From Atractiella rhizophila (taxonomy: Eukaryota): 64,000 bases of DNA. Position 1 is the stretch's first letter; each line of letters begins with the position of its first letter. The position numbers were made by a program, and so were the translations under genes. Under the pieces are notes generated by a model. That model was not told the origin of the DNA. It searched no databases and saw only the letters and a program-made list of their open reading frames with translations. This document shows positions 21,801 through 49,500 of the stretch, piece after piece. The DNA lies in the NCBI GenBank assembly GCA_021432655.1, contig MU271182.1:1-64000 (forward strand). Direction: 5' to 3'.

Positions 21801-24373
21801 GGTTTAGTTGGTGTGTGGCAAAATTCAGGTTATGGATCATGTTTAGGTGAGTTCGATTCTCGGTGGGGTCACATTTTGTCACCCTGAAAAGTGCAGCGCT
21901 GTGAAGTGCCTGCATGCGATTTCTTCAGCGCTTTCTCTGATTTCTCGCATTGTGCGCCAAAAATCATTGTTTCCTAACTATGAGGGAAAGTGAGCAAATG
22001 TTCATGCAAGTGAAACAGTTCTTTCAACACAAATATGCTTCCTAACAATCTACTATAGTATCCCTGAGTCCTTTACCATCAAATCAAATCAAGTAAAAGG
22101 AGCATAGGTGTGTGTACTCTAGCTTATGTATTTTTCACTTACATCATTTTGCTATGTGCAGCAAGCTACACTCTCATGCCATGTGCAATTCAGAGAAATC
22201 AAACAAGAAATCGAGAGCGTCGATCCAAACGGCCCCAAAATCTGCAGCAGGAGGCACCACCACACCAAGGCCGACCTATAAGGGAGAGGCGACGCCCTGC
22301 ACGTTTTAATCCTACTCCACCAACTCCACCTCAGCATGAGACGAGACCAACTAGGGCTCCACATCACCGGCAACGTTGAAGCTCATCACTGTCTAGATCG
22401 TCACGACCAGCTCGACGACATCGGAGACAGCGTTCACCCTCCCCTGAGGAGGACAGTGAAGAAGAGGCTCAACAGCACCCATCCTCTCCTGATCCTGATG
22501 ATGGAGACAGCGATGAGGATAGGGCATTAGTCCTGTTGTTGCAAGGCGAACAAAGGCAACATCACTATCCCACATTCAACTACTCACCTGACATGGATCT
22601 TGAGGCACAGGCACACCACCTCTCTATGTGGGGATTACTTTGTACACATTGCAAAGCCTTTCATTGGATGGAAGAGAAGATCGTTAACAGCCCACAATAT
22701 AATCCAAAGTTTTCATTGTGCTGTCTACATGGCAAGGTGCTGCTACCTGATCCTCCACCTCCTCCTGAAGAGCTATGAAAGCTTTTTACATATCACAATA
22801 CAACAGGTAAGTATTTCTATTCAATTTATTGCATATACATATCTGAGAGGAACAATCATTATAGAGTCAAAGCAATTTCGAGAGCATATCAGGGTATTCA
22901 ACAATGCTTTTGCCTTTACATCCTTAGGTGTCCGCCAGGTATCAATTCCTGGATACGGTCCCTACTCCTTCAAAATTCAGGGAGAGCTGTACCACCTTAT
23001 TGGTACTCTTTTGCCACAACAAGAAGGGGGTGAAACATTTGCACAGGTCTACATTACAGATTCAGGTGTACAGATTGAACAAAGAGTTGGGAACTCTTCA
23101 GTCTCACTGAGTCGTGCTACGCTTGAAGAACTTCAGGCTATGCTCTTCCGTGTCAACCCATATCCGAGGATCTACAAATTTTCGAAAGAAAGAATGGAAC
23201 AGGATCCCACCACCACACTACACCTTCGCACAGTAGCTCCACAAGATAGGGACCCAAGACGCTACAACATTCCTGTAGCCAGCGAAGTTGCTGTGGTGAT
23301 GGTAGGAGATGGCAACAGAGAAGAATATGGAGTGGCCAGAGATATTATCATCCAGCTCAGGGCAACCACAACCGGTAGCAACTTACAGCGTGTCAATGAG
23401 CTCAACTCAAATTACCTTCGCCTTCGTTTTCCTCTTCTGTTTCCATATGGGGACCAAGGATGGCATCCACAGATTCCGTATCGAGACCTGCCTGCAGATC
23501 TTCCTCCTGGCGAGCAAGAGCACTTCAATGATGATGGCATGTGGGTTGGTAATTCCGGGGTTCGACAACGTGTCAGCCAAATGGAGTTCTATTCTTACAT
23601 GTTGCATCAACGAAGCGATATATTCTCACTACCTCTCTATGGTGGTCGGCTATTACAAGAATTAGTAGTTGACTCTTATGCACAAATTGAAGCATATCAT
23701 CTCCGCTACCTTCGGTTCAATCAGTCTATTCTTCGAGCTGAGGTATATCAAGGTCTTACAGATGCCCTTGCGGAAGGCTATCCTTTAGAAGATATAGGAA
23801 GGCGGACTATATTACCATCAAGTTTCACTGGCAGTCCACGTTCAATGAATCAGCTGTTCCAGGATGCGATGGGTATAGTTGGTGCCGTGGGACCCCCAAA
23901 TACCTTTACAACCTTCACTTGCAACCGAAACTGGGCAGAGATCACGGAAGCCCTCCTACCAGGACAAAAACCAGAGGATCGGCCAGATTTGGTTTCAAGG
24001 GTTTTTCGACTGAAGGCCCTGGAGTACATCAAGGATTTAGTGGTACGACAGATTTTTGGAAGGGTTATCGGATATGTCTGGGTCATTGAATTTCAGAAGA
24101 GAGGTCTACCACATGCGCACATCCTGTTGATTCTTCATCCTGAAGATCTTATCAGGGACGAGGCAGCCATCGATCAAGTAATTCAAGCAGAGCTGCCTGA
24201 TCCGGACAAGGACCCTGTATTGTTTGAAATAGTCACCAAACATATGCTACATGGTCCATGTGGTGAACATAATCCACATGCACCTTGCATGGTTGATGGA
24301 AAGTGTGGCAAAGGGTATCCCAAGCCTTTTGTCGAGGAAACAAGAATCAACGAAAATGGTTACCCTACCTATC

Positions 24374-25928
24374 TCGACTGCCTCTCCGCTAGTGAGTATT
24401 ACCGAAGTAGGGTGTCCTATTAAAGACGGAGCTGTATATCGGAAGGTACTAGTGAAACTCGGTTTTATGGTGTTTGACTGACTCGTAGACGTAACTCCCC
24501 TTAGAACTTGCGCATACTCGCCATGCTGGTGGAAGTTCGTGTTTATCGTCGTTAAGGTCTTCTCCGATGACGATCACGTTAGAAGAACCTACTAGAATGA
24601 GAACGGTCATATTCTAAGACTTGTTTTCAGAAAGGTCAAGGAGGTCCGGGTAGCTCTTTCTTCTCAGGGGGCCATGGTAAGGCGGTCCGAAGCTACTAAC
24701 ATAGTATACGCAACAGCAACTAGGAGTAAGTATTCTCCTTCTAGGGATAGTTCTGCAACGAGGTTGAGGTATTGCAACATGCGGTCGAGAAGAGGTTAAA
24801 TAGGAACAGAGAGGTGGGGTAGCACGTTTGGACACTCGTCCATTGCCGTTGGATATGAGGAGATCACAGAACGGATCTGGTACATCGTCTAGGAGATCGA
24901 GTTATTCCGTATTCAGAGCCTAGACCAGAAGTCTTCCGCATCGGTAAGTTATTTGACAAACGTCTTCTACACGTGTTAGAAGTAACTCGAATAGTAATCA
25001 CAGAAGCTTTGTCAACATTACCAAGCGAACGTTGAGGTTTCTGGTTTTACATCTGTTTTTTCTCTTGTTTTAACGATAGGAGCAAACTAACGTAAACGTA
25101 GAAGGTCTGTGTCTAGGGTAAGAAGCAGTGAAAGGTCATCTGGACTACGGTGTGTCCGACGAAACTTACAAAGCACTTGAACTCGTATTTAACATGCTTA
25201 TAGAAGTTTTCTAAATCCTGAACCCTGGAACACTTCTTCACCAGCTTCTATTTCTCGAGGGGAACACTACCACGTTATATTTATATAGGCTGGTTATCGT
25301 AGCGGAAAGAGTGCATAGAAGGTCGCGAAACTTGATGAGACGGTCTGGTTCACAGCTCCACGAACTCCTATCCAGGTATTAGCCCCTCTGGACCCCTCTC
25401 AGTGCCGTTTTAACCTTTTTAAGCGACTCGTAACAAAGGGGTTACAAAGAGGAACTTTCATATAGAAGTCCAACTAGCAGAAGACGTAATTTTTACTGGT
25501 AGACAACTAAACCTTCTACTTACGAGTCAGCTTAGTGTCAACCTCTCACTAGTACTTCGAACTTCACCTTTTAGGCGGTCGTGCGATTTTTAATATTGTG
25601 ATGAATTGACAGTTGAAATCCTCTTACCTGTTTTGCTTGGAAGGCTTCGTGGTTGTATGGTACGTAGATTTATGAGAAATTAGAGTAGGTGACCGAGAGA
25701 GCGAGGTGACCGTAGACTAAGATTCTGATTAACACGAGATAGACCGGGGAACATATGCATAAATTTCTGTATAAACTATCTCGCTTAACTCTATGTCTAG
25801 AGACACAACTACACTCGGTCTTTGAAGGAATCCTGGGTTTACCAATCTCCCGTGATGGGTAGCTAATAGTATATATTTAAGAACTGGGGTATAGTAGAAG
25901 GCTTTTTGGGCCGTCAACAATGCAGCAA
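24374..25928. other. Mirror-written segment 1 (reversed, not complemented) containing the middle of the Helitron ORF
   Basis: Read right-to-left it continues GYPTY into QRRNN...DNRWVVP...HINTEICISIRSIKYVFKYVYKG, then GGTGKT, AVASSGIAA, GGRTAH and ILWDEAIM. It ends in GTCAGCT, the 7 bases that follow the gap. Confidence 0.97.
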
Positions 25929-25953: not shown

Positions 25954-27486
25954 GTCAGCTGTGTGGATCGGTTTGGGGCAGGACCTTAAAAAGGATTCAA
26001 GACCATTTGGAGGAACACTTATGGTTTTCTGTGGTATGATACTTCCCTTTAAGTAGTTCTTTATTAACATACTGTTCACAGGAGATGGCAGACAGTGTTT
26101 TCCGGTAGTGCCAAATGGAAGCCCGAGCTCAGATTGTGGATGCCTGCATCATTAATTCTTACTTCTGGCCGAATGTTCAAGTCCTGCCTTTGAAAACCAA
26201 TATGCGCCTTCTTTGAGGCCAACAGGAAATGACACCAGCCGAATTTCAGCATACAACCAGATTTGCCCAGTGGCTCCTTGATGTTGGAAATGGTCTCACT
26301 GATAATCCGTCAGACAATGGATGTGGAGCCTTAACGATACCAGATGGATCTATTATTCCATCCCACGAAGGACTAGATGGTCTGTTGCGCTCAATTTACG
26401 GACAACTAGATTCTCTACGAAATATCCCTGCTCTGAGCTTCCTTCAAGAATACTTCCGGGTTCGCATGATTCTAGCAGCAAAGAATGTGGATGTGGATGG
26501 CATCAATGATCGCTTGATTCAGTGGCTCGAATCCACAGGAGATCGGGTATATTACAGTGCAGATCAAATTATAGATGACGAGGGAGATCTCAGAAATCGC
26601 TTCTCTGTTGAGTACCTGAATACCCTGGAGATCTCTGGATTCCCTTCACATCGTTTACACCTCAAGATCGGTGCACCCATCATTCTTCTGCGAAATCTCA
26701 ATCCATCTGCTGGCCTGTGCAATGGCACACACCTCATAGTCACTCAGCTTCTCCGGCGAGTCATCGAAGCAACCATCATTACAGGTGCACACAGTGGGCG
26801 AATCAGTTCTCATTCCTCGAATCGGCATTGACAGTGTAGTATCAAACCAGCTTCCTTTTCAATTCCGCCGCTTTCAATTCCCTGTGCGCTTAGCATTTGC
26901 CTTAACTCTGAATAAAGCGCAAGGACAATCTGTTGGACATGTGGGTTTGTACTTAGAGTCTTCTCCTTTCTCTCATGGGCAGCTTTATGTTGGTCTTTCA
27001 CGGGTTTCAAAACGCGAACAATTTACGAGTATTGGTCAAAACAAAGCAAGGAGAGGAAAACAAGCAAACAGATAATGTAGTTTACAAAGAAGTGTTACGA
27101 GTACTCAATCATTGATCATCTCTCAGCATGTTCCTAACAGTATAGTCAAAAGCTGAAGTGGTTCTCTGAGGTACGAGGAGACCACTCAGCTTTTCACTGT
27201 TTTTTAAAGACAGTAGAGTACATATGGTGAGTCTGTGCTCGCCGAAGGCGAGGCTCCACGCAGTGGCTGCCGGAGGCTGGGGTCCAAGGGCGAAGCCCCC
27301 GGCGGGGGGATGCCCGAGGGACGAGGGCACTGACACACTTGTCTGAATAATGCTGAATGCCAATCTCAGACACCATTTATTCTTGGACCAGATGACATTG
27401 ATTTTACGTTACCAACATCACATCACGCTTCTCTTCAAGCACGGCGAGTTTGGACAAATCCTCTCCCACCTTTATTACAGCAGCTG

Positions 27487-30080: not shown

Positions 30081-30857
30081 GTTGATACCAGCTTGCTTTG
30101 GGGTTGGAATATTCTCGAGCTGGGGTTACTGAGACAAACCGAAACATCAATTCGAGAGGAGGCATGGTCGCGACTGGCATCCGACTGTACAACAAGCATA
30201 AGCACGCATGGAGATGGGTCCATTTGGAGTGGACTACCGTACATCTTGTCGTCCATGCACAGGCATGGGCGGGTAGGAGCAGGTTGATTCTGGTTCAATG
30301 TAAGTCAAAATTGGTGGGTATCCCACACGGATGCCAAACCCGTATCGTACCGTTGTGCATCCCTAGCAGGGAGGGAGACGTGAAGTGGTGAGTAGCTATC
30401 ATCGAATCAGCCGACATGCTTAAACATTGACCAAGCCAATGTACGGTGTCCGTGAGGAGAAGGAGGGGGCAACAACTGGAAATCTAAGAAGGCCCACTTC
30501 AGCAGTGAGAAAGGTAGGAGGGAGAGCCATACGAATACTAGGTTTTACAACGGTGGAGAGGTGAAGTATTGATGGTAGTTTCTCAACATTTAGAAAAAAA
30601 GAGGTCATATTTCATAATCCTTTCCTTATATAATAAAGCACAACTGGATTTGGCCATGACTCATACATGCACTTTTGAGTTCTTATATCTCCACCCACAA
30701 TAACCCTTTGAAAATTCTGAGCATAAGCATACCATAAGAATATGTGTGACGGCGCCCTTCGAACCGTATACAGCAAAGCCCATTTGAAAGACGAAAAAAA
30801 GTGTTTTGGTGACTGAGTCAGGTGACTTCTGAGCACTTTGAGCAAAATTTGCGTTAC

Positions 30858-31450
30858 CTACTCAAAGTTAGGTAATAAGGCATCAAGTTTGTACTGTGGT
30901 GTAGTTGGTGTATTGTTGAGATTCAAGTCTTGAGTGATTGGGGTTGGTGTTGGTTCGATTCTCAGTCCTGTCATGTTTTGTCACCACCAGAACACATTGC
31001 GCACAAAGTGCGTGCATGCAATTTCTTATTCAGGGCTTTCTGAGATTTCTCATGTCATGGGCCAAAAAAACTGTTGTTTGCCAACTATGAGGGAAAGTGA
31101 GCAAGCATTCATGCAAGTGAAACGGTTTCTTTCACCACAAATATGCTTTCTAACAATCTACCATAGTATCTCTGAGCCCTCTACCATAAATCAAAGCAAG
31201 CAAGAAAAGCATAGGTGTATATACTCTGGCTTATATATTCTTCACTTATATCATTTTGTTATGTGCTGCAAGCTACACTCTCATGCCACATGCAATTCAG
31301 AGAAATCAAACAAGAAATCGAGAGCGCCGATCCAAACGGCCTCAATGTCTGCAGCAGGAGGCACACCAAGGTCAATCTATAAGAGAGAGGCGATGCCCTG
31401 CATGTTTTAATCCTACTCCACCTACTCCACCTCAACTTGAGACAAGATCA
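30858..31450 (+). repeat. Diverged second copy of the Helitron 5' region (paralogue of about 21760-22345)
   Basis: Long shared strings, e.g. ACTATGAGGGAAAGTGAGCAA and CAATTCAGAGAAATCAAACAAGAAATCGAGAGCG. Confidence 0.85.
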
Positions 31451-32491
31451 ACTGAGGCTAGGACTTGTCAGCCTGTAAGCGGCTAAGACATGCTTGTGCA
31501 ATCCAAAACTCCAAACTCAAGCGACGACCAAATCAGAGAACCCGCAGGTTCCGGCGGAATTTAGTGAGAAGGAAGCCTAACCGTTCACCCTTCCCTCATA
31601 CCTCATGGAGTTTCCCGTGGACCAATAGACAACCCGTACACCGTACGGGTCAGGTGGGTTGGCGGTGTTGAAGGTTTCCAAAACCGTGTGACAAGCCTAT
31701 TGGGACCCTTCGCCTTTACAAGGTACTTATCCCTAAGGATCACTTCTTGCTGTCGCATGATGAACACAGGCTGTTGGAGTGATTTAGCCATAGACTTGAA
31801 CTGGGGTTGTTCCGACTGATGAAATTTTGCTTTCCCAATACTGAACTAGAAACCGGCACAACTTTGTGAAGAGCATGGGGAAAAGATGTCCAGAGGAATT
31901 GGAAGTAAGGCACCCCATTAGATACTCTGAGTTACCATTCTCAGATAGTTCCCATTCACACCTTAACACTCCTGTCACAGTTCGAACATGGCGATGGTGA
32001 GAAGAAAAACAAGAACAAGAACGATCTGATCCACTGTCTACCTGAATTATACCCAATATGCAGCATGCGAACATCAAATGGTACAGGGCTGTTGAGCAAC
32101 ACCAGTGCCTTTCGGCATGTCAGGTGTTGCAGGCACGTTTGTGAATGCACCAAAGCCTTTTCAGTAAATATGCGTTGTGATGATGCTCAACAGAATGCAT
32201 TACAACAATAATTGGGACTTTTTATACCATCACACAGGTGGAGAACAAGAAAGGATGCAGAATGACCAGTGAGAGTATTCACCACAGCCAAATAAACAAA
32301 CAGTTTTGTGCGTTTCGGCAAGGTGTACACACTTCACCAGCCAGCTCACCTAATACCATATTACTGGGGGCAAGTTCGCAAATTGTCTGTCATCACAAAC
32401 AAAGAGGTGCTCTGGCACCTTGTTTCAGTTTTAACATGTATTGTGGGAGACAAGAGCGTATGGATGAAGGATTAAAGCACTGAGAACGCAC

Positions 32492-33445: not shown

Positions 33446-36400
33446 TTCGTTGTCCTGCATGTCACGGAATGAGAAGATCCACATCGCGTCCATGATATGC
33501 CTGTGGTTAAGGCGCCGTTATCAGCATTTTGAGCAAGGTTGTTAGCAACAAGATTTTTTTTAGAACTAGGTCTTTCTGCGATTGCCTAACTGGAGCGTTT
33601 CGGTTTACACCCTTCGTACACTATATTTCATCAACTATTTGACTATTCTCATTTCTGAAGCGAGAGCATTGCTGAGATTGCAAGATTGTACAACAGGAAA
33701 GAATGATTGTAGTGTTTTCTTACGTCTAGCAGCCACACAAAACAACCCACTGTTTACGAAAGTAATTCTCCCTAATTCTTCACAGGTACAAATATGTCAT
33801 TTCTTTTTTCGAATTTGGCTTTTGTACTGTTTGGGTAGTATGGGTTTGAGATCAAAGTCCTAAACAAGCCAAAACGAACGAAATCAATGTGATCAAAGCG
33901 TCACAGTAATGCTCGCTGGGAATACGGTCGGGGAACAGGAGCAACTGCTGGAGACAGATGTGGGGATTGGCATCAGGGTCGAGAGTGGAAGGGAAAGTGA
34001 AGCAGTACGATACCTATTACATGGCTTCTTCATGAGAATCAATCCAACGTCGCATCGTGAGAGAACACTTACCAGGAGAGGTTGAGCCATTTTTCGAATT
34101 AGTGAGGAAGAAGTTGAATGAGGCTCCATTGTCATACTCCCAAGACGCGAACGATTCGACATAATGATCCGCTTCTTCGATGAGAGTGAAAGTTCCGTTC
34201 CCACCTCGGGCATTCAAAGAGTCGACGGCGTTCCTCATGTCAGACTCGAGTGGTGAGGTTCCGTTGTCGAGACTACTAAGCACCGAAAACACAACCAGAA
34301 AAGAAGAACAGATCCAAGCAAAACCAGTGGACCTGGGTACCTTACAATGTCATGTGTAAGAAATGATTATTATGTATTACTAGGCATTAGTCCAGGATTC
34401 TGATAATGGTAATGCCATTACTTTGTACTGGAAAGTATGGGAGAAAACAGTGCCTTACATTACATTAAAAAAGCACTACATTACATTACATTCCAGTATC
34501 TGTAATAGAAATGTGCTCAGTGCTGGAGGGGACCACACGAAGGCGAAATTTAAAAGACGGGGGCGAGCAGCTGAACGAGGAGAAGTGTGCCATTATTGTG
34601 GTGTTCATGATTCATCCTGCCATCTCAGATGAGTGGCAATTATTTGTTCCAGAATATTCTCCATCATTCTCGCTTTTTGTTTTCTTACGTCCTTACTTTT
34701 TCTTGAAAGTTCTAGAATAACTGTCTCACAAGTATATAAAGACTGAGAAAAATAGCGAAATAATCATTGCAATTTCACAATACCAACAATTATGTAGTTC
34801 TTTGACGGCAGTCATCTCACAGATCGCAGCATGTTGCAAAGATGAAAGGTGAAGCCGGATCTGTAGGAACGTAGGAATGGCACAAAGATGCCGAAAGGGT
34901 TATGACATGGTTTTCTCTCCGGTGCAAACTCCGCACTGTACACTCTTGTACTTTCTACAGATTTATATCGCACTGGTCAATGACACAGTTTTCGATGCCA
35001 TTCACTCCGCAGCACCTGATAGTGAAACGCATGATCACGAAGTTTTGGTGATATCAAATTGAGTTGCCATATAAGAGACGAAATTCTGCCCCTTGTCTCT
35101 CTACCCAAGAATCGCTTATTATTTTTTTTCGTGGGATGGAACATTCTGCTAAACACACCAGAGTCCTCATATCAGCGGACCTCCTCCGCCGCAACACGCT
35201 CAGCAACAGGAACAACATGCACCATTGAGCGACGAGCACGATCCGAACGCTCCACGTCTGACCCTGCCTGATGGCAAGAAAATTTTCAACGAAGACGTGA
35301 AGAGCACTTGGTTCGGGTGCGTTTCCTAACTTCCCACATTCCGGCGCTCAGTGCAGCATTGATGTGAATTCTCTGCTACCAGAAAAGTTGATACGGAAGA
35401 ATGTGCCATGCTCGTCGCTGCATGCTGCTCACTTGGGAAAGCTCCCTTTGATGAACACAGCCGTGATTGAGTTTTTGATGAAGTTGGGAGACGCGAGGCA
35501 TCGCGTAACGAGTCCTGGTAATACTTGGGTGTTCGTCTTTTTCTCCCTCTCTTCTTCTAACATGTTCGACGTGACTCACTCTGCGAAAGGCTCAAAGGTC
35601 CTTCTGGTATTCTTGAATTTGAAGATGGAATTGCTTGGTTCGTTTCTTCTCTTTGCAACTGTCCTTGTGTCACTCACAATTCTCTGGGCATGAAAAGGTC
35701 AGAAAGCACCGAAATCACGTATCCGCTAATGTTAGCGCGCTGTTGTCAATCGTGGACATGCCTCTCTCAGACACCTTTCGTCAGGCGCCACCTCGAATTC
35801 AGAACGATGGACACGATCTATCACCTCATCACGTACCAATACGAACGCGACAACGTCGTTCCTCTCACCGATATTCATAAGGATCAGTGGATGATGAATG
35901 TCTGGCGTCAAGACCTCGGCGGCCATATGAGCATCATGAAGTCTTTCTACGGTGGACCACCGGTTACGAACGCCATTCGCAATTCGGCCGGAATGGATTG
36001 GAGGACTGGGGAAGCTGAAGAGCGGAGGAGAAGGCAGGCGGAGTATATGAATCAAGTCAAGAAGCCCGCTTTTCGAGTGCATGTTGCAAGAGCGGGCGTG
36101 AGATCAGACGGAGAGGAGATGATTGTGGATCTACATGAACAGCGTCCGAGAGTTTTCGAAGATCAGTCAACGCGATCGAGGAAGGATGGGCCTACCTCGA
36201 GAGGTTAGCATAAGAGTAAGGCGAGAGCTGTTGAGGATTGGCAGTCCGCTTATGAAGAGGTTCTGCCACATGCTTCTCGGGACCTTCAACGAAAAAACCG
36301 CCGGCGTTGATGACAGTCTTTTTGATGGACGGGAAGGAGGACGCAGGGGAGAGGCACGTGAAGGTTAGGGCCGATGGGAATGCGCGAGCGAACTGGGAAG

Positions 36401-37156
36401 TTGGGAGTACAGCGATCTTTGGCACGGAGAAGGGGTATAAACCTCAACTTCGTGGTCAAAAAGCTGGAGGGGACGCATATAAGGTGCCTCGCAATAAGGG
36501 AGAGCGAGCCCTCGCAGCAGAACGCGAGAGTGAGAGAGCTCGAATGCGAAGCATCCGTGGATCTCCATTCGCTCATCCTCAGCATCCAAGTCCTCCCATG
36601 GCCGCGAAGATGCCTATACATTCTCCTCCTGGCAGTTACGTCCATTGTCCGCCGCCTGGCCATCCCCTCTTCGTATATGGTTCTCCTTTTCCCCATAGGT
36701 TTTAGCTGACAAATTTTTGTGACATAGGTTCCTCCTGGATTCCCTGTTCCGTACGGACACCCTTCTCGAGCTTCGCATTCCAAAAGACAACGAAGTCTAG
36801 ACGGCCTAGAAGATGACGAAAGAGTTGTAATTGACATGGCCGTCGACGAGGAGGAGGACCAAAAACCCTTTTCGAAACGAGCTCGGGTGAGCAACACTCA
36901 ACAGGATCCCATCCCAATTCGCGACACTCCCGGTCCGTCAGCTCGTCCCTCAGCTTCCCATCGAATGGATGTAGACGAAGGACGTCACATCCCCCTCATC
37001 CCTTCAATGCGTACCAAATAGGGCATCCTGGTCATGGTCCGCCTCCCTTCATAGATGGACGCCGCTCGTCTGTGGTGCAACATCCTCACATGCCACATTT
37101 TCCTCTACCCATTGGACCTCACGATCAAGTCCTCTATGCCCGTGAGGGGCCACCGG
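33446..37156 (+). repeat. Duplicated block, copy A (copy B = mirror-read 43196 to 41420, then 46564-48492)
   Basis: 35227-37156 is nearly identical to 46564-48492 (a few SNPs, one 1-bp indel). 33446-35226 matches 41420-43196 read backwards and is more diverged below about 33900. Confidence 0.95.
35162..37156 (+). pseudogene. Divergent Gti1/Pac2 (WOPR) domain gene, copy A, frameshifted and cut by a LINE insertion
   Basis: Spliced: STWFG|KVDTEECAMLVA(frameshift)HAAHLGKLP...SPGNTWV|LKGPSGILEFEDGIAW|SES...FVRRHLEFRTMDTIYHLITYQ. TGA at 36253. The start codon was not located. Confidence 0.7.
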
Positions 37157-37230
37157 GGGGCGGTCGTAGTGCCTCCTCGTGGCGCCCCTGGATAACGTTA
37201 CTTCCTTCGGGATAACTAACTAAACTACGA
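37156..37230 (+). ncRNA. HDV-like (nested double pseudoknot) self-cleaving ribozyme at the LINE 5' end
   Basis: P1 GGGGGC/GCCCCT with G-U first pair; P2 TCGTAGT/ACTACGA; P3 GCC/GGC; L3 TCCTCGT; P1.1 CC/GG; P4 with a C-UUCG-G loop; J4/2 C37220-TAA. Confidence 0.85.
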
Positions 37231-40200
37231 TAACTTTCGCGCTGCACAGCGAAATAAATCAAGAGTGTAGTGGATTTGTTAGGCGCGCAGGATTCAGCCT
37301 CTAACAACAAGCAGCATGGGAACTTCGAGGGAATTGAGGATCTTTAGGCTCCCTAAAGATCTCGTGCGTAAAGATGGTATTGATGGAATTTGGAGGGCGC
37401 TGCAAGGGGCCCATTGCGAGGGAATAGTGCGTAAAATACGGTGGTCTAATAGACCAGATGGAGTAAATGCTACCGTCGAAGGTAGCAGTGGGGAGATCCG
37501 GAAGGCCCTGAAGCTATGGATTACAGCTCACCAAGCCCGTTCTAAATGGGTAGAGCCGAAACATAAGCGGAAGGTAACCAGACCGGATGTTCTTAAGCCC
37601 CTGAAGGAATTGAGGATTGCTACATGGAATGTGAATTCCTTATCCAATAAACGTTTAGAGGTAGTCGAGTACGTTCAAACGATGAAACTAGGAGTGGTGG
37701 CGCTGCAAGAAACCGCGATTGAAGTAGGAGGATGGCCACTGCGCCTCCCGGGGATGAACACATTCTCTAGCCCCTTGGAAGATGGTACTCCAGGGGCAAG
37801 GGGAGTCACCATATGCGTAAGCAAGAAACTCTCCAGTGTTCTAGTCGATAAATCCCCATATTGGGTATTGGTCAAAGTACATGGATTGGAGACCGGCCAT
37901 CCATGGTACTTTACCAGTGTATATGTGCCGCATGAGCCAGCGATGAAGAGACTGGCCTTGCAGGGAATTAAAGGCCGTATCAATCGGATCCTGAGACAAG
38001 ATCAGGAAGCTCGAATTATATTCATGGGGGATCTCAATTGCGGGGCCAGTAGGACAGCAACACTATTTAAAAGGACTAGTCGGATGAATAGGTTACTCTG
38101 CCGAGGATCAGATAAAACATACCACAGGGCAGCCAAGTGGACGACACTTGATCACATATTGGCATCAGAAGCAGCTTATAGGTTTTTGAGAAAGCCCAAG
38201 GTCAGAAGGGATATCCCTACATCTGACCATTTTCCAGTGGTATGTAAAGTTCGGATAGGTGAACCAATTATGGACCAACGATCAGCAGCAGGATCGGAAG
38301 AGAAGAAAGTATGGATACTTAAGGATCTGCCACAAAAGGCTAATGAGATCTTGTATCACCCGTTGTGGGAACTACCCACACCCTCCTCCTATGGGCCACT
38401 CAAGTGGGAAGAGGAGGTTGACAGACTAGAAAATCTCGCTAAGGGCTGGGACGACCTGTCGCACAAGATAGCGCAAGAAGCAGAGGTCGAGCGAGACCCC
38501 ATCCCCTTCGAAAAACGAAGGCCTAACAATAGTATTCGCCTGGCTATTAAGGCGAAAAGGACGGCATGGAAGAGGTACCTTGCCGGGGATGCTGACAATG
38601 TTGCAGAACTATGGGATGAGTACAAGCGGGTTAGAAGAGCCTCTACTCGAACCGTAGCAGAAGTCAGATCGGTAGAATGGGCAAAATATGTGCAACGCGG
38701 GATGGATTATGCACGCGTAGGACAAGCACGTAAATTCTTCCGATGGGTTAAGAACACATCTGGGTTTAAGAGTCGTCAACCAAGTGGGATAGCCCCACTA
38801 ATGGACAGTGAGGGTACCATGCGATATTCTTCGGAAGAGATAGCAAAGCTGTGGTTTGACCACGTAAGCAAGTTAATGAGTATCGGTAGTATCCCCAATA
38901 GCACGCCTGAAAAATGGCAAGCAGAAGGGGGTCTCCTAGATCAGGGGGACATGCAAACTGACCAGGACATTAGTTGGAGAGAGTTGCAATATACACTTCG
39001 GAAGATAAAAGCGGGTAAAGCGGCCGGAGCGCCGATGCTGCCCCCCGAATGGTATAAGGTGATGCTCGTTGACGCTGATGAAGACGGAGGGAGCCCTGAA
39101 ACGCCCTCCGCACCGATGCAGAAGTACTTCTACGAGGTGATCAGAACCATGTGGAGATTGTCCCGTGTCGCAAGACAATGGGATGTGGCCCTATTGGTGA
39201 TGATAGGAAAGAAAGGGGATCCTACTCAGTGTGACAATTACCGGGGTATAAGCCTCATACCTGTTATACTGAAAATCCTTACCCATATTATAGCCCGTCG
39301 AATCACCGACGGAGTAGAGTCGGATAATAGGTTAGCCGAAGAACAAGCTGGCTTCAGAAGAAGGGAGGAGTGCATGGGCCAAGTGGCAGCTCTCCTCGAA
39401 GTCTTGCAGCGCCGTCGCGATATTATAAAGGCGGGAACAGTTCTCCTATTCGTGGACTTCAAGAAGGCCTACGACCTGGTTGACCACGAGGCTCTATTCT
39501 ATAAGATGAAAAAGATGGGGGTTGGGGACAAAGCTTTGGCATTTATTCGTGATTTATACACAACTTCAAAGGTTAGGGTCATAACAGCAACTGAACTTAG
39601 CGAAGCCATAACACTCCTTAGAGGGTGCAGACAGGGGTGTCCTGGATCACCTCTGTTCTTTGACATCTTTATTAATGACTTAGCGATCAAGCTTCGTCAA
39701 TGTGGGGTAATGGTCCCTGGGTGCACAGATATTTTGGCAAGCTTATTGTTCGCTGACGACCTACTGTCCCTTGTGGATGGGCCTGATCAGTTACACAGGG
39801 CATGTGCGGTAATCACCGAGTGGGCTGATAAGTGGGGGATGAAAGTAGGGATACAGAAATGCGGGATCATGGTGACGTGTAGTAATGTGTTGGTAATGTG
39901 TTGCGAGACGAGGTCCTGGAGACACCGGGTGGATTCTCCATCCAGGGACAAAGGGTACCTATAGTAGAGGAATATGTGTACCTCGGTGTGCTCTTCAGGG
40001 ATCGTTCCTTGCCGAATGTGACCGAGCACGTGGAGGAACGGGTAAACCTCTATAATGAACGTCTGGGCTCCTTAGCACACATCACACGGTCAAAGACCAT
40101 TCCTGTCTGGACCCGAAGACATGTATTTAGAGTCGTATGCGAGCCAGTCCTGCGCTGGGGTGCGGAGGTTATGGGTCCTGCAAAGGACTCTGTAGCCAAA

Positions 40201-41394
40201 GCTGAAAAGGCTTGGATGAAGGGGGTGAAGGCCTTGGTAGGCTCAAATTCCACGAATTCAATCTTTGGACACCTAGCATTAAGAAGGGAGCTTGATCTGC
40301 CAAGCTTCCATGAGACGGTGATAATGTCCCGGCTTAGAGCGATTTATAAATACCCCACATTGAGAACGTGGATTGCGAAGCTTTTATCAGAAAGGGCATG
40401 ATCTAAACATCGGGGTTGGATTAAGGGTACAGAGTTGTGGTTGAGAACGTATCCGAAGGTGGACATTTGCATGGATACCGAGGCAGAAGCCAAGGAGAAA
40501 GTGCGCCAATATCTGAGGGAACGAGACGAAGGAGAGGTACAAGGAAGAGCTAAATCCTTCCTGTACTATGAAGCCGCCTGCTTCGAGGCCACAAGGAAAT
40601 ATCTAAAAATCGCAGTAGGGCATGCTCGGTGGTCGAAAGGGTTCAACTGGCTAGTGAGGGCGAGGGTGTCAGGTATTTGGACCGTAAAACGTGTCGCCGC
40701 AACACTCGGGTATGTGGACACCGATAAAGGCAGTAGGTGCCCTGCCTGTTCACGCGTCCTTAGGGACGACCGGGGGTTGGAGTTTGGGCACGTATTACTA
40801 GACTGTAGGGCTTATACAGATGAGAGAAATATCTTGGAACCAGTACTTACTGCCTTGCAGGACAAGGTGGGTTATGTGCTTCCACAACTATTTGTGGTGT
40901 TCTTGTTAGGAGGCAAGTTTGACGAACGTCATCGCACGAAGTGGAATGTGCCGGAGGGCGTGGACCCAGCAGCTTATCCATGGCCAGTGAAAGAGTGGAC
41001 TGGAGAGGATGAGCAGACTTTTAGGGGGACGGGAGCAAGTGTCTCTCTGTTAGTGGCGCAATTCCTTCAAGCTGCAATGCGGAAGCATATGGCAAAAGTA
41101 TGGGAAGGCGTTACCCCTAGTGGGAACTAAAGCGAATAGAGAAAGCGGAGCTTGTGAAGCAAGACTCCATATAGCCTAAGCTCACAAGGAGTATGGCAAT
41201 GGCAACAGCGTAAGCTAGCCGAGAGGTGAGTTTAGGGGGTAGGCATGTAGGGTAGGAATACCAACATGAATCCTCCACGAACTGGAGAGGGAAACCTCAA
41301 AGGGAAGGTTTTGAACTTCTCACCTCTATAAAAATTACAAGCGACTTTTGAAGTGTACTCTGAAAGAGGACGCTGGCACCCACAATGAGTTTCA
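37156..41394 (+). mobile_element. Non-LTR retrotransposon, single ORF (APE endonuclease, RT, CCHC), RTE-like architecture; ORF 37316-41130
   Basis: ATWNVNSL, LQET, MGDLN, LDHIL, SDHFPV; YRGISLI, QAGFR, DFKKAYD, GCRQGCPGSP, LFADD; CPAC...GHVLLDC. Lesions are an 11-bp tandem duplication (39882-39903) and a TGA at 40399. The 3' end is lost in the gap. Confidence 0.95.
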
Positions 41395-41419
41395 NNNNNN
41401 NNNNNNNNNNNNNNNNNNN
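41395..41419. other. Assembly gap, 25 N
   Basis: Run of exactly 25 N. Confidence 1.
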
Positions 41420-43484
41420 TTACCACGTACAACAAGGACAACGACTCGCACAACGCCGCCTCCTCCAGGCGACTATACTCCTGAGACCACACAAATCGTC
41501 TTACAAGGTAGGGTGCTTTTTTTTATTATTCGCTAAGAACCCATCTCTCTGTTCCCCGTCTTAAAGCAGAGAATATACCGTTGAGTTAAACTATAGTGGT
41601 TTTGAAGCACTAGTACGCAAAGTGATAGTCCACGACGCCTCACTTACCGTAGCTTTTGACACAGTAACTGGTCACGCTATATTTAGACATCTTTCATGTT
41701 CTCACATGTCACGCCTCAAACGTGGCCAGTCTTGGGAAAGCCGTAGAAACACGGCAAGGATGCACGGATGTCTAGGCCGAAGTGGAAGTAAAAGCGGTTG
41801 AGGCAGTACTAGACACTCTACTGACGGCAGTTTCTTGATGTATTAACAACCATAACACTTTAACGTTACTAATAAAGCGATAAAAAGAGTCAGAAATATA
41901 TGAACACTCTGTCAATAAGATCTTGAAAGTTCTTTTTCATTCCTGCATTCTTTTGTTTTCGCTCTTACTACCTCTTATAAGACCTTGTTTATTAACGGTG
42001 AGTAGGCTCTACCGTCCTACTTAGTACTTGTGGTGTTATTACCGTGTGAAGAGGAGCAAGTCGACGAGCGGGGGCAGAAAATTTAAAGCGGAAGCACACC
42101 AGGGGAGGTCGTGACTCGTGTAAGATAATGTCTATGACCATTACATTACATTACATCACGAAAAAATTACATTACATTCCGTGACAAAAGAGGGTATGAA
42201 AGGTCATGTTTCATTACCGTAATGGTAATAGTCTTAGGACCTGATTACGGATCATTATGTATTATTAGTAAAGAATGTGTACTGTGACATTCCATGGGTC
42301 CAGGTGACCAAAACGAACCTAGACAAGAAGAAAAGACCAACACAAAAGCCACGAATCATCAGAGCTGTTGCCTTGGAGTGGTGAGCTCAGACTGTACTCC
42401 TTGCGGCAGCTGAGAAACTTACGGGCTCCACCCTTGCCTTGAAAGTGAGAGTAGCTTCTTCGCCTAGTAATACAGCTTAGCAAGCGCAGAACCCTCATAC
42501 TGTTACCTCGGAGTAAGTTGAAGAAGGAGTTAAGCTTTTTACCGAGTTGGAGAGGACCATTCACAAGAGAGTGCTACGCTGCAACCTAACTAAGAGTACT
42601 TCTTCGGTACATTATCCATAGCATGATGAAGTGAAAGGGAAGGTGAGAGCTGGGACTACGGTTAGGGGTGTAGACAGAGGTCGTCAACGAGGACAAGGGG
42701 CTGGCATAAGGGTCGCTCAGTAATGACACTGCGAGACTATTGTAACTAATGTGATGGAAAACCGTGTAAATCCTGAGACTAGAGTTTGGGTATGATGGGT
42801 TTGATATGTTTTCGGTTTACGCTTTTTTCTTTACTGTATAAGGATGGACAGTTCTTAATCTGTGTTAATGAATGCATTTGTCACCGGACGAGACACACCG
42901 ACTATGTGGGTTCGTTTTGTGCTGTTAGTACGAAAGGACAACATGTCAGAACGTTCGAGTCGTTACGAGTTCGAAGTCTTTACTCTTATCAGTTTATCAA
43001 CGTTGTTTATGTTACATGCTTGCCCACGTTTGGCTTTGCGAGGTCAGTCCGTTAGCGTCTTTCTGGATCAAGATTTTTTTTAGTACAACGATTGTTTGAG
43101 CTCGTTTTACGCCTATTGTCGCGGAATTGGTGTGCGTATAGGTCACCTGTTGCTGAGTGCTAGGAGAGTAAGGCACTGTACAGTCCTGTTGCTTAATTTT
43201 GTTATCGATGTTACGGGATAACTGATCCTTCACCTCCTGACACGCTAAGCCACAGTTGTTGTTTCGCTTTCTTACGTTGGACCTTGTTCAGAGCGTGCAC
43301 GCAATTACAGCGTTTGCGGCGCGATACGGCTTTTATGCGTATGCAAGGGGCTGAAACTGGTCGGTGTTCCGAACTTTGATCTCTCACAAGAAAGCATATA
43401 AGTCTGCCGTTGCGGAAATATTTCCGGTAATCTCGAAGAGGAAGAAGTCTTGAGTTGGTTCAGGGGAAGTTGGAGAGTTCGTTC

Positions 43485-46324: not shown

Positions 46325-46563
46325 AATTCGTAGATTTCAGAGGTTCCTACTGGGTCGGAGTAGCTATAGATCCTGCGCGGTTGAACGGAGTTAGACTGAG
46401 CAGCGTGGACCGTACCCACATAGAGCCTTTTACGGGTGGTGGCGAAGCGGATAGCGAAGTTTTAACAGGCAACGTTCTCGCTCCTATCAACCTGGACGTG
46501 GCCTCTCTGTCTACGGGTTGTCAGGTCCTTCTCACAGACCCCTTTCGCTATCCTATTAACCTT
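46325..46563. CDS. THR1: Homoserine kinase, C-terminal part; read right-to-left uncomplemented (true plus strand)
   Basis: LSPDTLPGLLGICLSGAGPTILALATDNFEAIG...SWRVLDIDEAGSSLETLDA*, containing the GHMP-kinase SGAGPT motif in the fungal Thr1 context. Confidence 0.9.
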
Positions 46564-49500
46564 GAGCGACGAGCACGATCCGAACGCTCCACGTCTGACC
46601 CTGCCTGATGGCAAGAAAATTTTCAACGAAGACGTGAAGAGCACTTGGTTCGGGTGCGTTTCCTAACTTCCCACATTCCGGCGCTCAGTGCAGCATTGAT
46701 GTGAATTCTCTGCTACCAGAAAAGTTGATACGGAAGAATGTGCCATGCTCGTCGCTGCATGCTGCTCACTTGGGAAAGCTCCCTTTGATGAACACAGCCG
46801 TGATTGAGTTTTTGATGAAGTTGGGAGACGCGAGGCATCGCGTAACGAGTCCTGGTAATACTTGGGTGTTCGTCTTTTTCTCCCTCTCTTCTTCTAACAT
46901 GTTCGACGTGACTCACTCTGCGAAAGGCTCAAAGGTCCTTCTGGTATTCTCGAATTTGACGATGGAATTGCTTGGTTCGTTTCTTCTCTTTGCAACTGTC
47001 CTTGGGTCACTCACAATTCTCTGGGCATGAAAAGGTCAGAAAGCACCGAAATCACGTATCCGCTAATGTTAGCGCGCTGTTGTCAATCGTGGACATGCCT
47101 CTCTCAGACACCTTTCGTCAGGCGCCACCTCGAATTCAGAACGATGGACACGATCTATCACCTCATCACGTACCAATACGAACGCGACAACGTCGTTCCT
47201 CTCACCGATATTCATAAGGATCAGTGGATGATGAATGTCTGGCGTCAAGACCTCGGCGGCCATATGAGCATCATGAAGTCTTTCTACGGTGGACCACCGG
47301 TTACGAACGCCATTCGCAATTCGGCCGGAATGGATTGGAGGACTGGGGAAGCTGAAGAGCGGAGGAGAAGGCAGGCGGAGTATATGAATCAAGTCAAGAA
47401 GCCTGCTTTTCGAGTGCATGTTGCAAGAGCGGGCGTGAGATCAGACGGAGAGGAGATGATTGTGGATCTACATGAACAGCGTCCGAGAGTTTTCGAGATC
47501 AGTCAACGCGATCGAGGAAGGATGGGCCCACCTCGAGAGGTCAGCATAAGAGTAAGGCGAGAGCTGTTGAGGATTGGCAGTCCGCTTATGAAGAGGTTCT
47601 GCCACATGCTTCTCGGGACCTTCAACGAAAAAACCGCCGGCGTTGATGACAGTCTTTTTGATGGACGGGAAGGAGGACGCAGGGGAGAGGCACGTGAAGG
47701 TTAGGGCCGATGGGAATGCGCGAGCGAACTGGGAAGTTGGGAGTACAGCGATCTTTGGCACGGAGAAGGGGTATAAACCTCAACTTCGTGGTCAAAAAGC
47801 TGGAGGGGACGCATATAAGGTGCCTCGCAATAAGGGAGAGCGAGCCCTCGCAGCAGAACGCGAGAGTGAGAGAGCTCGAATGCGAAGCATCCGTGGATCT
47901 CCATTCGCTCATCCTCAGCATCCAAGTCCTCCCATGGCCGCGAAGATGCCTATACATTCTCCTCCTGGCAGTTACGTCCATTGTCCGCCGCCTGGCCATC
48001 CCCTCTTCGTATATGGTTCTCCTTTTCCCCATAGGTTTTAGCTGACAAATTTTTGTGACATAGGTTCCTCCTGGATTCCCTGTTCCGTACGGACACCCTT
48101 CTCGAGCTTCGCATTCCAAAAGACAACGAAGTCTAGACGGCCTAGAAGATGACGAAAGAGTTGTAATTGACATGGCCGTCGACGAGGAGGAGGACCAAAA
48201 ACCCTTTTCGAAACGAGCTCGGGTGAGCAACACTCAACAGGATCCCATCCCAATTCGCGACACTCCCGGTCCGTCAGCTCGTCCCTCAGCTTCCCATCGA
48301 ATGGATGTAGACGAAGGACGTCACATCCCCCTCATCCCTTCAATGCGTACCAAATAGGGCATCCTGGTCATGGTCCGCCTCCCTTCATAGATGGACGCCG
48401 CTCGTCTGTGGTGCAACATCCTCACATGCCACATTTTCCTCTACCCATTGGACCTCACGATCAAGTCCTCTATACCCGTGAAGGGCCACCGGTGGGAACC
48501 CTTCCTCCTGGTACTCAAATTCCAATTCCTGGTCATCCAGTTGGTGGATTCATAGACCCACGCTTTCAAGAACCTAGGCTTGCGCCGAAGCCGACGAGAG
48601 GAAGAGGGAGGGGAAGGGGAAGGGGGCCTAGAAGAGGGAGAGGAGGGGGAAGAGAGACGAAGGAGCCTCGACCAGAAGGATCGGAAGAGGAACGGATTCC
48701 AACACCTCCTCTTCCTCGTCCTCCTACAATGCAGGAACGAGATCTCTTGATCCGAAACGAAGACAATACATTGGCAGATAACATAGTGATTAATCCTGCG
48801 ACGGAAGGAGAAGTAGACGAAGATAAATCTGCAGCTCCCCATCCACCTGCCGATCCAGCTCAGCAAATGTCGTCCTCGGTCGGATCGAGTGTGATGAGGC
48901 CCAGGAAAAGGCATCAGCGCCAGATGAGCCCAGGGCACATCAACAGACCCGATAATGTCTGGGTTGTCTTTCTGAAGCATTATCGAGTGGCTAGACAAGA
49001 GGCAAAGGCGATGGGGTTGATCAAATCTCAGCAAATAACGAAGGAAGCATCCAAGATCTGGAAGAAGATGACAGACGAAGATAGGGCACCGTAACACGAA
49101 ATTGCGGGGGAGCAGAAGAAGATCCACAAGATCAAGCACCCCGACTATCGCTTTCATCCTAGGAGGAGGGATCGTTGCGAGAAAGGAAACTTTTGTTGGG
49201 TTCGGCAACCATGGCCCCATACTCTCCTCATAATAGGGCAACATACATGCCTCATTATCCTCGCCCTCAACCTCCTCCTCACGCTGTTCTCCCTCAGCAT
49301 CATTCCCAATTGCGAGAGCCAAAATTTGAGTCCAACTTCGAAAAAGGTGATGCATCACCTGTGCGGGTCAAGAAATGTTTTATTTGCCCCGTGAGATAGT
49401 TCCACCTCAACAATTCTCTCCCCCACCGGTTCCAGACTCTCCCCCTTCTCAAACAGCCCCTCTTCATGAAGATCAAGTCACTTCTCTTGCTCTTGCTCCA

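What the first reader, a model, noticed from the sequence alone, without database searches (positions are those of the whole stretch)
37156..37230. HDV-like self-cleaving ribozyme forms the exact 5' end of a fungal single-ORF LINE
Seen: every HDV-fold element is present in order. P1 37156-61/37184-89 (G-U at position 1, 6 bp), P2 37164-70/37224-30 (7 perfect pairs), P3 GCC/GGC around L3 UCCUCGU (HDV genomic L3 is UCCUCGCU), P1.1 CC/GG, P4 capped by cUUCGg, and a C-U-A-A J4/2 that places C37220 at the catalytic C75 position. Independently, comparison with the uninterrupted paralogue (CCACCGG|TGGG near 48492) puts the insertion junction at 37155-37157, the predicted cleavage site. Established: HDV-like ribozymes process the 5' ends of R2, RTE and L1Tc retrotransposons. 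Inference: this element cuts itself out of host read-through transcripts and needs no promoter of its own. The class is known; this instance and its 6-bp P1 may not be described.
Basis: partly seen in the sequence, partly recalled or inferred. Interest (0 to 1): 0.85.

Follow-up and report, generated by a model that had tools for sequence, protein, structure and literature searches.

The report
HDV-type ribozyme heading a LINE retrotransposon
The first 75 bases of a jumping gene (a LINE) inserted in a host gene can fold into the shape of the hepatitis-delta self-cutting RNA, which most likely trims the element's RNA to its exact start; this trick is already known in animal and trypanosome LINEs and is here seen in what is probably a fungus.

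Summary
All 25 proposed base pairs (P1, P2, P3, P1.1, P4) exist at 37156-37230, with zero-length P2/P3 and P3/P1 connectors and a C-U-A-A directly before the 3' strand of P2.

My own descriptor finds this one site in the window on both strands. A strict version hits 1 of 220 shuffled windows.

The predicted cut site, 5' of G37156, coincides with the LINE's 5' junction. That junction is defined by an uninterrupted copy of the host sequence and by two further genomic contexts in public read contigs that join at 37154 and 37156.

Downstream lies one APE+RT reading frame of about 1270 codons, broken by one frameshift and one stop.

No Rfam HDV model matches. No close relative's DNA could be fetched, so there is no covariation evidence. 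Cleavage itself is untested.

The 6-bp P1 is not new: R2 ribozymes have 6 or 7 bp (PMC3774820). HDV-class ribozymes are already known in fungi (PMC5640933).

Verdict: a very probable new member of a known kind, of moderate interest. "Fungal" and "needs no promoter" remain unproven.

The parts
37156..37230 (+). Candidate HDV-like self-cleaving ribozyme; predicted cut 5' of G37156
   Evidence: 25 of 25 pairs verified. It is the only descriptor hit in the window.
37156..37161 (+). P1 5' strand (GGGGGC); pairs with 37184-37189, G37156.U37189 at the cut site
37164..37170 (+). P2 5' strand; pairs with 37224-37230 (7 Watson-Crick pairs); J1/2 = GG at 37162-63
37171..37183 (+). P3 (GCC/GGC) closing L3 UCCUCGU; C37175 and C37176 form P1.1 with G37191 and G37190
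37197..37216 (+). P4 hairpin: 4 bp, a 2-nt bulge, 3 bp, UUCG loop
   Evidence: -4.0 kcal/mol on its own
37217..37223 (+). J4/2 UAACUAA; C37220 is the candidate catalytic cytosine, followed by U-A-A abutting P2. The direct repeat UAAC-UAAC allows a second P4 register that would pair C37220
   Evidence: the alternative register is my reading of the sequence
37231..37315 (+). Rest of the 5' UTR; there is no ATG between 37156 and the start codon at 37316
37316..41130 (+). Single LINE reading frame (AP endonuclease, reverse transcriptase, C-terminal Cys/His motif), about 1270 codons. It is broken by a frameshift near 39892-39898 and an in-frame stop at 40399-40401
   Evidence: Pfam PF03372 and PF00078. 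ORFs. tblastn with relative P0004 covers 37331-39892 and 39898-41103. Invariant C, C, H, C columns in alignment A1.
41131..41395 (+). LINE 3' untranslated part up to the assembly gap. The last ~170 nt are about 3 times deeper in read contigs than the interior; the true 3' end is not resolved
41396..41420 (.). Assembly gap (25 N)
35221..37155 (+). Host gene segment upstream of the insertion (repeat arm 1), with a 55-nt GT..AG intron at 36673-36727
46559..48496 (+). Repeat arm 2. It carries the uninterrupted target site (about 48491-48493) and continues in frame into an HMG-box coding region

Best explanation
Positions 37156-37230 encode a canonical HDV-type (nested double-pseudoknot) self-cleaving ribozyme. 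It forms the first 75 nt of a single-ORF APE/RT LINE.

Proposed mechanism:
1. The element is transcribed from upstream, here from the HMG-box host gene in which it sits in sense orientation, or from an upstream element copy. This step is inferred.
2. The RNA folds and cuts itself 5' of G37156, with C37220 acting as the general acid. This leaves a 5'-OH on G37156. This step is inferred from the architecture.
3. [quoted passage not shown] Shown: three contexts share the end within 2 nt.

This particular copy is probably dead or mis-assembled in its coding part. Its ribozyme sequence shows no defect in any pairing.
For: 1. Complete architecture. 25 of 25 pairs are present, with zero-length P2/P3, P3/P1 and P1/P1.1 connectors, G.U at the cut site, L3 starting with U, the CC of L3 pairing with the GG after P1, and C-N-A-A abutting P2. 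This matches the general description in PMC4908430 (passages) and PMC3774820 (section 16: P1 6-7 bp, P2 at least 5 bp, P4 variable).

2. Specificity. It is the only descriptor hit in 64 kb on both strands. The strict descriptor hits 1 of 220 shuffles, and the descriptor with P2 of 7 bp or more hits 14 of 200.

3. The cut site equals the element's 5' end.
- The empty-site comparison places the junction at 37155-37157.
- In contigs of public DNA runs of the same organism, a different 28-nt flank joins at 37156 (run X2).
- A contig of run X1 runs from the LINE 3' region (41334), through 29 other letters, into 37154.
- Contigs of X2 and X3 carry the empty site (tables 5 and 7).

4. Context.
- An APE+RT ORF starts 85 nt after the ribozyme, with no upstream ATG.
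- The element is in sense orientation in a host exon whose upstream intron is spliced in contigs of run X3.
- One low-depth X3 contig bridges the host/LINE junction (37108-37623). This is a weak hint of co-transcription.

5. Precedent. HDV-like ribozymes cut at the 5' end of R4, Dong, baggins, RTE and L1Tc (PMC3774820 passages; PMC6765202 passages).
Against: - No Rfam HDV-type family matches at gathering score or at E up to 10 on 301 nt.
- There is no covariation evidence. DNA of the nearest relatives (36-42% protein identity) could not be fetched.
- The 103 loci that were fetched hold only relatives of 33% identity or less. No convincing HDV-like motif lies upstream of their ORFs.
- The loose descriptor alone hits 87 of 200 shuffled windows.
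- Three extra bases separate P4 from C37220, and J1.1/4 is 5 nt, against 0-2 nt in R2.
- The UAAC-UAAC repeat allows a P4 register that pairs C37220.
- The nested MFE fold is a competing structure of -20.6 kcal/mol. It uses the P1 5' strand and the P2 3' strand differently.
- The host flank AGGGGC (37145-50) can compete for the P1 3' strand (alignment).
- No RNA run is on record, so no 5' end could be mapped.
Confidence: 0.8

Rival explanations
1. The 5' leader is a conserved structured RNA descended from, or resembling, an HDV-like ribozyme, but its present role is not self-cleavage. It could be an internal promoter, a translation-initiation element or a binding site for the LINE protein. The shared 5' end would then be set by transcription initiation.
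For: - In L1Tc the same first 77 nt are both an internal promoter and a ribozyme (abstract of PMC3383444 in the listing).
- HDV-like ribozymes of retrotransposons are reported to promote translation, and the R2 protein binds its 5' pseudoknot (PMC6765202 passages).
- J4/2 carries 3 extra bases, and an alternative register pairs C37220 (and the sequence).
- No Rfam match.
Against: Every feature needed for catalysis is present in canonical spacing: G.U at the cut site, the L3 U...G and CC, P1.1, and C-N-A-A next to P2. There is no reason for a non-catalytic element to keep a free C exactly 4 nt before P2. A promoter role and a ribozyme role also do not exclude each other.
Confidence: 0.12
2. Chance resemblance: a GC-rich LINE 5' end that happens to satisfy an HDV-like descriptor.
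For: The loose descriptor hits 87 of 200 shuffled windows. No Rfam match. No covariation data.
Against: - The strict descriptor hits 1 of 220 shuffles anywhere in 128 kb of searched strand.
- The hit begins within 1 nt of an independently defined 5' junction, on the sense strand. From the rates I estimate about 2e-6 to 1e-5 by chance.
- P4 has a UUCG tetraloop, and the connectors are of zero length.
Confidence: 0.05
3. The junction is not a true LINE 5' end but a rearrangement or assembly artefact. The region has a 1.94-kb duplication and an N gap, so the coincidence with the cut site would be meaningless.
For: - The insert is flanked by a 1.94-kb direct repeat and contains a 25-N gap.
- The expected 3' junction with the host sequence is absent from the window (the downstream host sequence occurs only once, at 48495).
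- The near-identical host flank has about the same depth as the LINE interior in run X1, 147.8 against 158.6-169.6. This argues against a true duplication.
Against: Read contigs independent of the scaffold show the same 5' boundary in two other contexts (37154 and 37156), and they show the empty site. The artefact, if any, concerns the 3' side and the second repeat arm, not the 5' junction.
Confidence: 0.03

Closest known systems
HDV-like ribozymes at the 5' ends of non-LTR retrotransposons: R2, R4/Dong, baggins, RTE, L1Tc. Sources: Eickbush and Eickbush (PMC3774820, passages and section 16 read); Sanchez-Luque et al. (PMC3185411, passages read). Ruminski et al. 2011 is not held and is cited only through PMC6765202.
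   Same: A nested double pseudoknot lies at the very 5' end of the element, with the cut at or next to the 5' junction. The element sits in a transcribed host context. P1 is 6-7 bp, P2 at least 5 bp, and P4 is variable. One read contig suggests a head-to-tail arrangement; L1Tc is described as forming tandem repeats.
   Different: The host is probably a fungus rather than an animal or a trypanosomatid. The LINE is a single-ORF APE element whose nearest relatives are unnamed environmental sequences. It is not site-specific like R2. J1.1/4 is 5 nt, and 3 extra bases precede the catalytic C. Activity is untested.
HDV-class ribozymes of fungi: 230 'variant' representatives in 26 species and 11 earlier canonical ones (Li and Breaker 2017, PMC5640933; passages and Table S1 read; the .sto alignments were unreadable here).
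   Same: An HDV-class fold in a (probable) fungal genome. That paper notes 'widely variable gene associations', which is what a mobile element would give.
   Different: This one is of the canonical type: G.U rather than C-G at the cut site, no extra base between P2 and P3, and an ordinary P4 hairpin instead of a loop E. That paper does not mention transposons (0 occurrences of 'transpos'). Here the link to a LINE 5' end is explicit.
Genomic and antigenomic ribozymes of hepatitis delta virus
   Same: The same five helices in the same order, a G.U cut-site pair, a 3-bp GC-rich P3, a pyrimidine-rich L3 of 7-8 nt, a 2-bp P1.1, and C-N-A-A before P2.
   Different: P1 is 6 bp rather than 7, P4 is shorter, and the setting is cellular and retrotransposon-borne. 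No tool-held HDV sequence was compared, and the Rfam HDV model does not match.

Membership tests
HDV-like self-cleaving ribozymes | Five paired regions P1, P2, P3, P1.1 and P4 in the order that gives a nested double pseudoknot | tested here: met
   25 of 25 pairs are standard pairs in the required order.
HDV-like self-cleaving ribozymes | Cut site at the first base of P1, with a purine-pyrimidine (usually G.U) first pair | tested here: met
   G37156.U37189. Only the sequence feature was tested, not cleavage.
HDV-like self-cleaving ribozymes | Zero-length or near-zero connectors P2/P3 and P3/P1; P3 of 3 bp; L3 supplies the two bases of P1.1 | tested here: met
   37170/37171 and 37183/37184 are adjacent. 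C37175 and C37176 pair with G37191 and G37190.
HDV-like self-cleaving ribozymes | Unpaired catalytic C in J4/2, followed by N-A-A next to the 3' strand of P2 | tested here: met
   C37220-U-A-A, then A37224. Deviations: 3 extra bases between P4 and the C, and an alternative P4 register that can pair it.
HDV-like self-cleaving ribozymes | Match to a curated covariance model (Rfam HDV, CPEB3, drz families) | tested here: not met
   No hit at gathering score and no HDV-type hit at E up to 10. These models cannot encode the pseudoknots, and the class is poorly conserved in sequence, so this is a weak negative.
HDV-like self-cleaving ribozymes | Pairings kept by compensatory changes in homologues | tested here: inconclusive
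   No DNA of close relatives could be obtained. In 103 loci of distant relatives (33% identity or less) nothing convincing was found.
HDV-like self-cleaving ribozymes | Mg2+-dependent self-cleavage giving a 2',3'-cyclic phosphate and a 5'-OH, lost on mutating the catalytic C | not testable with these tools
   Needs a bench assay.
Ribozyme-terminated non-LTR retrotransposons (R2/RTE/baggins/L1Tc type) | The ribozyme lies at the exact 5' end of the element | tested here: met
   The empty-site comparison places the junction at 37155-37157. Two other contexts join at 37154 and 37156.
Ribozyme-terminated non-LTR retrotransposons (R2/RTE/baggins/L1Tc type) | The element encodes a LINE-type reverse transcriptase with an endonuclease | tested here: met
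   PF03372 (3.6e-11) and PF00078 (4.5e-32) in one ORF. The nearest solved structure is LINE-1 ORF2p, E 3.7e-21.
Ribozyme-terminated non-LTR retrotransposons (R2/RTE/baggins/L1Tc type) | Transcribed as part of a longer host or upstream-element transcript and released by cleavage | tested here: inconclusive
   The element is in sense orientation in a spliced host gene, and one low-depth contig of run X3 bridges the junction. Contigs cannot show RNA ends, and the kind of run X3 is not on record.
Fungal 'variant' HDV ribozymes (Li and Breaker 2017) | C-G pair at the cut site, a loop E in P4, and an extra base between P2 and P3 | tested here: not met
   G.U at the cut site, a plain P4 hairpin, and no base between P2 and P3 (against the passages). 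It is of the canonical type, not this variant.

The most novel reading that the evidence does not exclude
This element is the first recognised representative of a large, unnamed clade of single-ORF APE LINEs. The clade has 899 representative proteins at E up to 1e-30, mostly on 4-5 kb environmental contigs. Its members would use a canonical HDV-type ribozyme as their 5' terminus.

The 'orphan' HDV-class ribozymes reported in fungal genomes with 'widely variable gene associations' (11 canonical, 230 variant) would in fact be the 5' ends of such retrotransposons. This would give fungal HDV ribozymes a biological role and a means of spread.
Probability: 0.25. Interest if true: 0.55.

Novelty: new member of a known kind. 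Interest (0 to 1): 0.36.

Why it matters
If it cleaves, this ribozyme extends the known way of defining a LINE RNA 5' end (a self-cutting HDV-type RNA instead of, or beside, a promoter) to a lineage where the link has not been stated in the papers I could search.

It also offers a simple explanation for the scattered HDV-class ribozymes already catalogued in fungi. The mechanism itself is not new.

In practice the motif marks full-length copies of this LINE family and their exact 5' ends.

Tried and rejected
- Whole-genome copy search: no genome is held for this window.
- Earlier findings of this scan: nothing on this genome or sequence. The 'HDV ribozyme' notes concern phages and do not bear on this.
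- RNA evidence: no RNA holder is listed for the stretch. Only Logan contigs could be laid, and these cannot show RNA ends.
- Rfam on five relatives' loci (L081, L001, L003, L008, L009): no ribozyme family at E up to 1.
- Descriptor scan of the 80 metagenome loci: 2 hits in 279,806 nt on both strands. Both lie inside coding regions (L043, L044), at about the chance rate.
- Relaxed descriptor on the first 1500 nt of 3 of the 103 loci (L081, L001, L003): 0, 1 and 0 hits. The one hit is inside the ORF.
- Own covariance model R1 (P1+P3+P4 nested) over the window and 99 of the 103 loci; L100-L103 were left out because of the 100-source limit. It found only the self-match and a 12.8-bit, E 0.38 hit in L002 that lacks P3 and L3.
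- Viral contigs: no relative found.
- Reading the ribozyme through the N-terminal extension of relative P0001: the best local match (8 residues, E 1.8) is not significant. Rejected.
- L081, the best distant relative with 5' sequence, starts with a 55-nt k-mer overlap to its own ORF end and shows no HDV-like fold upstream.
- Taxonomy from the protein atlas: uninformative.
- Pfam on 17 ORFs of the 5.1 kb between the gap and repeat arm 2: nothing.
- Papers not held: Webb 2009, Ruminski 2011, Webb and Luptak 2011, Jimenez 2015. What they say about fungal examples could not be checked.
- The Stockholm alignments of PMC5640933 could not be read, so no direct comparison with published fungal HDV ribozymes was possible.
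- Literature searches for an HDV-type ribozyme tied to a fungal LINE found none.

Full report
**What is at 37156-37230**

A script check found 25 of 25 pairs to be standard pairs.
- P1: 37156-61 with 37184-89, G.U first and then five Watson-Crick pairs.
- P2: 37164-70 with 37224-30, seven Watson-Crick pairs. An eighth G.U pair is possible.
- P3: GCC/GGC.
- L3: UCCUCGU.
- P1.1: C37175 and C37176 with G37191 and G37190.
- P4: four pairs, a two-base bulge, three pairs and a UUCG loop.

P2 runs straight into P3, P3 into the 3' strand of P1, and that strand into P1.1. C37220-U-A-A directly precedes the 3' strand of P2. This is the architecture described for the HDV family: cleavage at the first base of P1, with a core built from L3 and J4/2 (PMC4908430 passages). 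For the R2 ribozymes, P1 is 6 or 7 bp, P2 at least 5 bp and P4 is variable (PMC3774820 section 16).

Three deviations stand out.
- Three bases (UAA) lie between P4 and the candidate catalytic C.
- J1.1/4 is five bases, against 0-2 in R2.
- The tandem UAAC-UAAC allows a second P4 register that would pair C37220.

The nested part P1+P3+P4 evaluates to -17.6 kcal/mol. The pseudoknot-blind MFE fold (-20.6 kcal/mol; z-score 0.28) is a competing structure that uses the P1 5' strand and the P2 3' strand differently.

**Is it more than chance?**

I wrote a descriptor with these requirements:
- P1 of 6-7 bp starting with G;
- J1/2 of 0-6 nt;
- P2 of 5-8 bp;
- P3 of 3 bp;
- L3 of 6-9 nt;
- a two-pair Watson-Crick P1.1;
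- C-N-A-A before the 3' strand of P2.

It finds this locus and no other on either strand of the window. I then scanned block-wise dinucleotide shuffles of the window.

| Descriptor | Shuffles with at least one hit | Mean hits per shuffle |
|---|---|---|
| Loose | 87 of 200 | 0.565 |
| P2 of 7 bp or more | 14 of 200 | 0.075 |
| G.U first pair and U...G in L3 | 9 of 220 | 0.041 |
| As above, with P2 of 7 bp or more | 1 of 220 | 0.0045 |

The fold alone is therefore suggestive only. The position decides it. At the rates, I estimate a random hit landing on the three positions allowed by the junction, on the sense strand, at about 2e-6 to 1e-5.

**The 5' junction**

35221-37160 and 46559-48496 are 99.4% identical over 1940 nt, with nine mismatches and two gaps. 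Identity is unbroken to 37156 and fails at 37157. The second arm continues in frame into an HMG-box coding region. The insertion therefore begins at 37155-37157, inside a coding exon and in the sense orientation.

Independent support comes from Logan contigs of public runs laid on 36000-41390.
- A contig of run X2 matches from 37156 onward behind 28 unrelated letters.
- A contig of run X1 runs from the LINE 3' region (41334), through 29 other letters, into 37154.
- Contigs of X2 and X3 carry the empty site.

Three contexts thus share one 5' end within two bases. This is what a fixed RNA 5' terminus predicts. It does not by itself separate a ribozyme cut from a transcription start.

**The element**

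The ORF 37316-39964 carries Exo_endo_phos (3.6e-11) and RVT_1 (4.5e-32). tblastn with relative P0004 continues it through 39898-41103. It is therefore one frame of about 1270 codons, with one frameshift near 39892-39898 and one in-frame stop at 40399-40401.

Read contigs differ from the window by 2-nt and 11-nt deletions at 39735 and 39882. Part of the damage may therefore be an assembly matter.

There is no ATG between 37156 and 37316 and no room for an ORF1. The 3' end is not resolved. An assembly gap sits at 41396-41420. The expected downstream host sequence is found only once in the window, at 48495. The last 170 nt before the gap are about three times deeper in reads than the interior.

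**Relatives**

- The word-indexed search gave 3 proteins at E up to 1e-10 among the 8000 candidates scored.
- The exhaustive search gave 65,674 proteins at E up to 0.001 and 899 at E up to 1e-30. The nearest has 41% identity at 9.8e-210. The ten I looked up (P0001, P0004-P0012) are unnamed or labelled 'exonuclease III' by their sources, are 1134-1305 aa long, and lie on contigs of 4.1-5.4 kb.
- Their DNA could not be reached.
- Collection scans returned only relatives of 33% identity or less: 80 metagenome loci, none in viral contigs, and 23 loci in contaminated prokaryotic MAGs.
- None showed a convincing HDV-like motif upstream of its ORF. This was tested by the descriptor, by Rfam on five of the loci and by my own covariance model over the window and 99 of the 103 loci.
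- Given the distance, and with many contigs lacking 5' ends, this absence says little. It does mean there is no covariation evidence.

**Negative database result**

No Rfam family reaches gathering score anywhere in the window. No HDV-type family appears at E up to 10 on 37050-37350. The only hit there, mir-1281 at 22.8 bits, merely shows that the host flank AGGGGC can pair with the P1 3' strand.

**Literature**

- HDV-like ribozymes at the 5' ends of R2, L1Tc, baggins and RTE, and their role in release from co-transcripts, are established (PMC6765202 passages; PMC3774820 passages).
- A 6-bp P1 is ordinary.
- The L1Tc paper mentions an unpublished HDV-compatible fold in a Penicillium chrysogenum sequence (PMC3185411 passage).
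- Li and Breaker found 230 variant HDV ribozymes in 26 fungal species. They state that only 11 canonical fungal examples were known before and note 'widely variable gene associations'. The paper has no occurrence of 'transpos' (PMC5640933 passages and Table S1).
- My searches found no paper that ties an HDV-type ribozyme to a fungal LINE.
- Webb 2009, Ruminski 2011 and Webb and Luptak 2011 are not held and may contain such a case. The unreadable .sto supplements may as well.

**Organism**

'Fungal' could not be verified. No genome is held, and the atlas taxa were uninformative. A 55-nt GT..AG intron with CTGAC 20 nt before the AG, a Helitron and compact genes are compatible with a fungus; that such introns are typical of fungi is my recollection. 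Two identical 151-nt contigs in a rhizosphere metagenome are a small share and no evidence of habitat.

**Verdict**

This is most likely (0.8) a genuine canonical HDV-type ribozyme that defines the 5' end of this LINE family. Co-transcription with the host gene and independence from a promoter are inferred, not shown. It is a new member of a known kind. Its main added value would be to link fungal HDV-class ribozymes to retrotransposons.

Noticed in passing
window 35221-37160 and 46559-48496: A 1.94-kb direct repeat (99.4% identical) flanks a 9.4-kb insert made of the LINE, a 25-N gap and 5.1 kb without any Pfam domain. Arm 1 is continuous with the 5' part of the host gene and arm 2 with its 3' part. 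In run X1 the near-identical flank has about the same depth as the LINE interior (147.8 against 158.6-169.6). The repeat may therefore be two alleles scaffolded in tandem rather than a real duplication.
   Followed up: partly
window 41220-41395: The last ~170 nt before the gap are about 3 times deeper in read contigs than the LINE interior. Two related contigs join at 41266 and 41270 with their own upstream sequence. This may be a 3' tail shared with truncated or non-autonomous copies. One X1 contig joins 41334, through 29 letters, to the LINE 5' end (head-to-tail?).
   Followed up: partly
window 37329: Contigs of X1 and X2 match up to 37329, just after the start codon, and then diverge. Depth over 37260-37439 is higher than further in. 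The ribozyme plus 5' UTR may therefore also head a second, different element.
   Followed up: no
window 37145-37150: The host flank AGGGGC can pair with the P1 3' strand GCCCCU (alignment of the mir-1281 chance hit). At this insertion site it could compete with the true P1 or shift the cut upstream, as described for R2 with 28S sequence.
   Followed up: no
window 62030-64000: A second APE/RT LINE on the + strand, running off the window end (Exo_endo_phos_2 at 62030-62578, RVT_1 at 63590-64000). It is not detectably related to the first by tblastn at E up to 1e-3, and no HDV-like descriptor hit lies upstream of it.
   Followed up: partly
window 22531-24420 and 26217-26828: Helitron: a Helitron_like_N domain (4.8e-55) followed by a Pif1 2B helicase domain (5.2e-24).
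   Followed up: no
window 53060-53225 and 61713-61878: A 166-nt inverted repeat, 97% identical, with 8.5 kb between the arms. The right arm lies just upstream of the second LINE.
   Followed up: no
window 21904-22355 and 31006-31457: A 461-nt direct repeat at 85% identity on either side of the Helitron region. A shorter pair lies at 21637-21737 and 30623-30725.
   Followed up: no
L081 1-55 and 4308-4362: This contig is filed under a Gemmatimonadaceae MAG but is a eukaryote-type LINE: a 1287-aa ORF with a poly(A) run near 4640. It is contamination of the bin. Its first 55 nt repeat its own ORF end, which is a k-mer overlap.
   Followed up: partly
window 1-106: A short tandem array with a 15-nt period at the very start of the window (self-matches at offsets of 15, 30, 45 and 60).
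   Followed up: no
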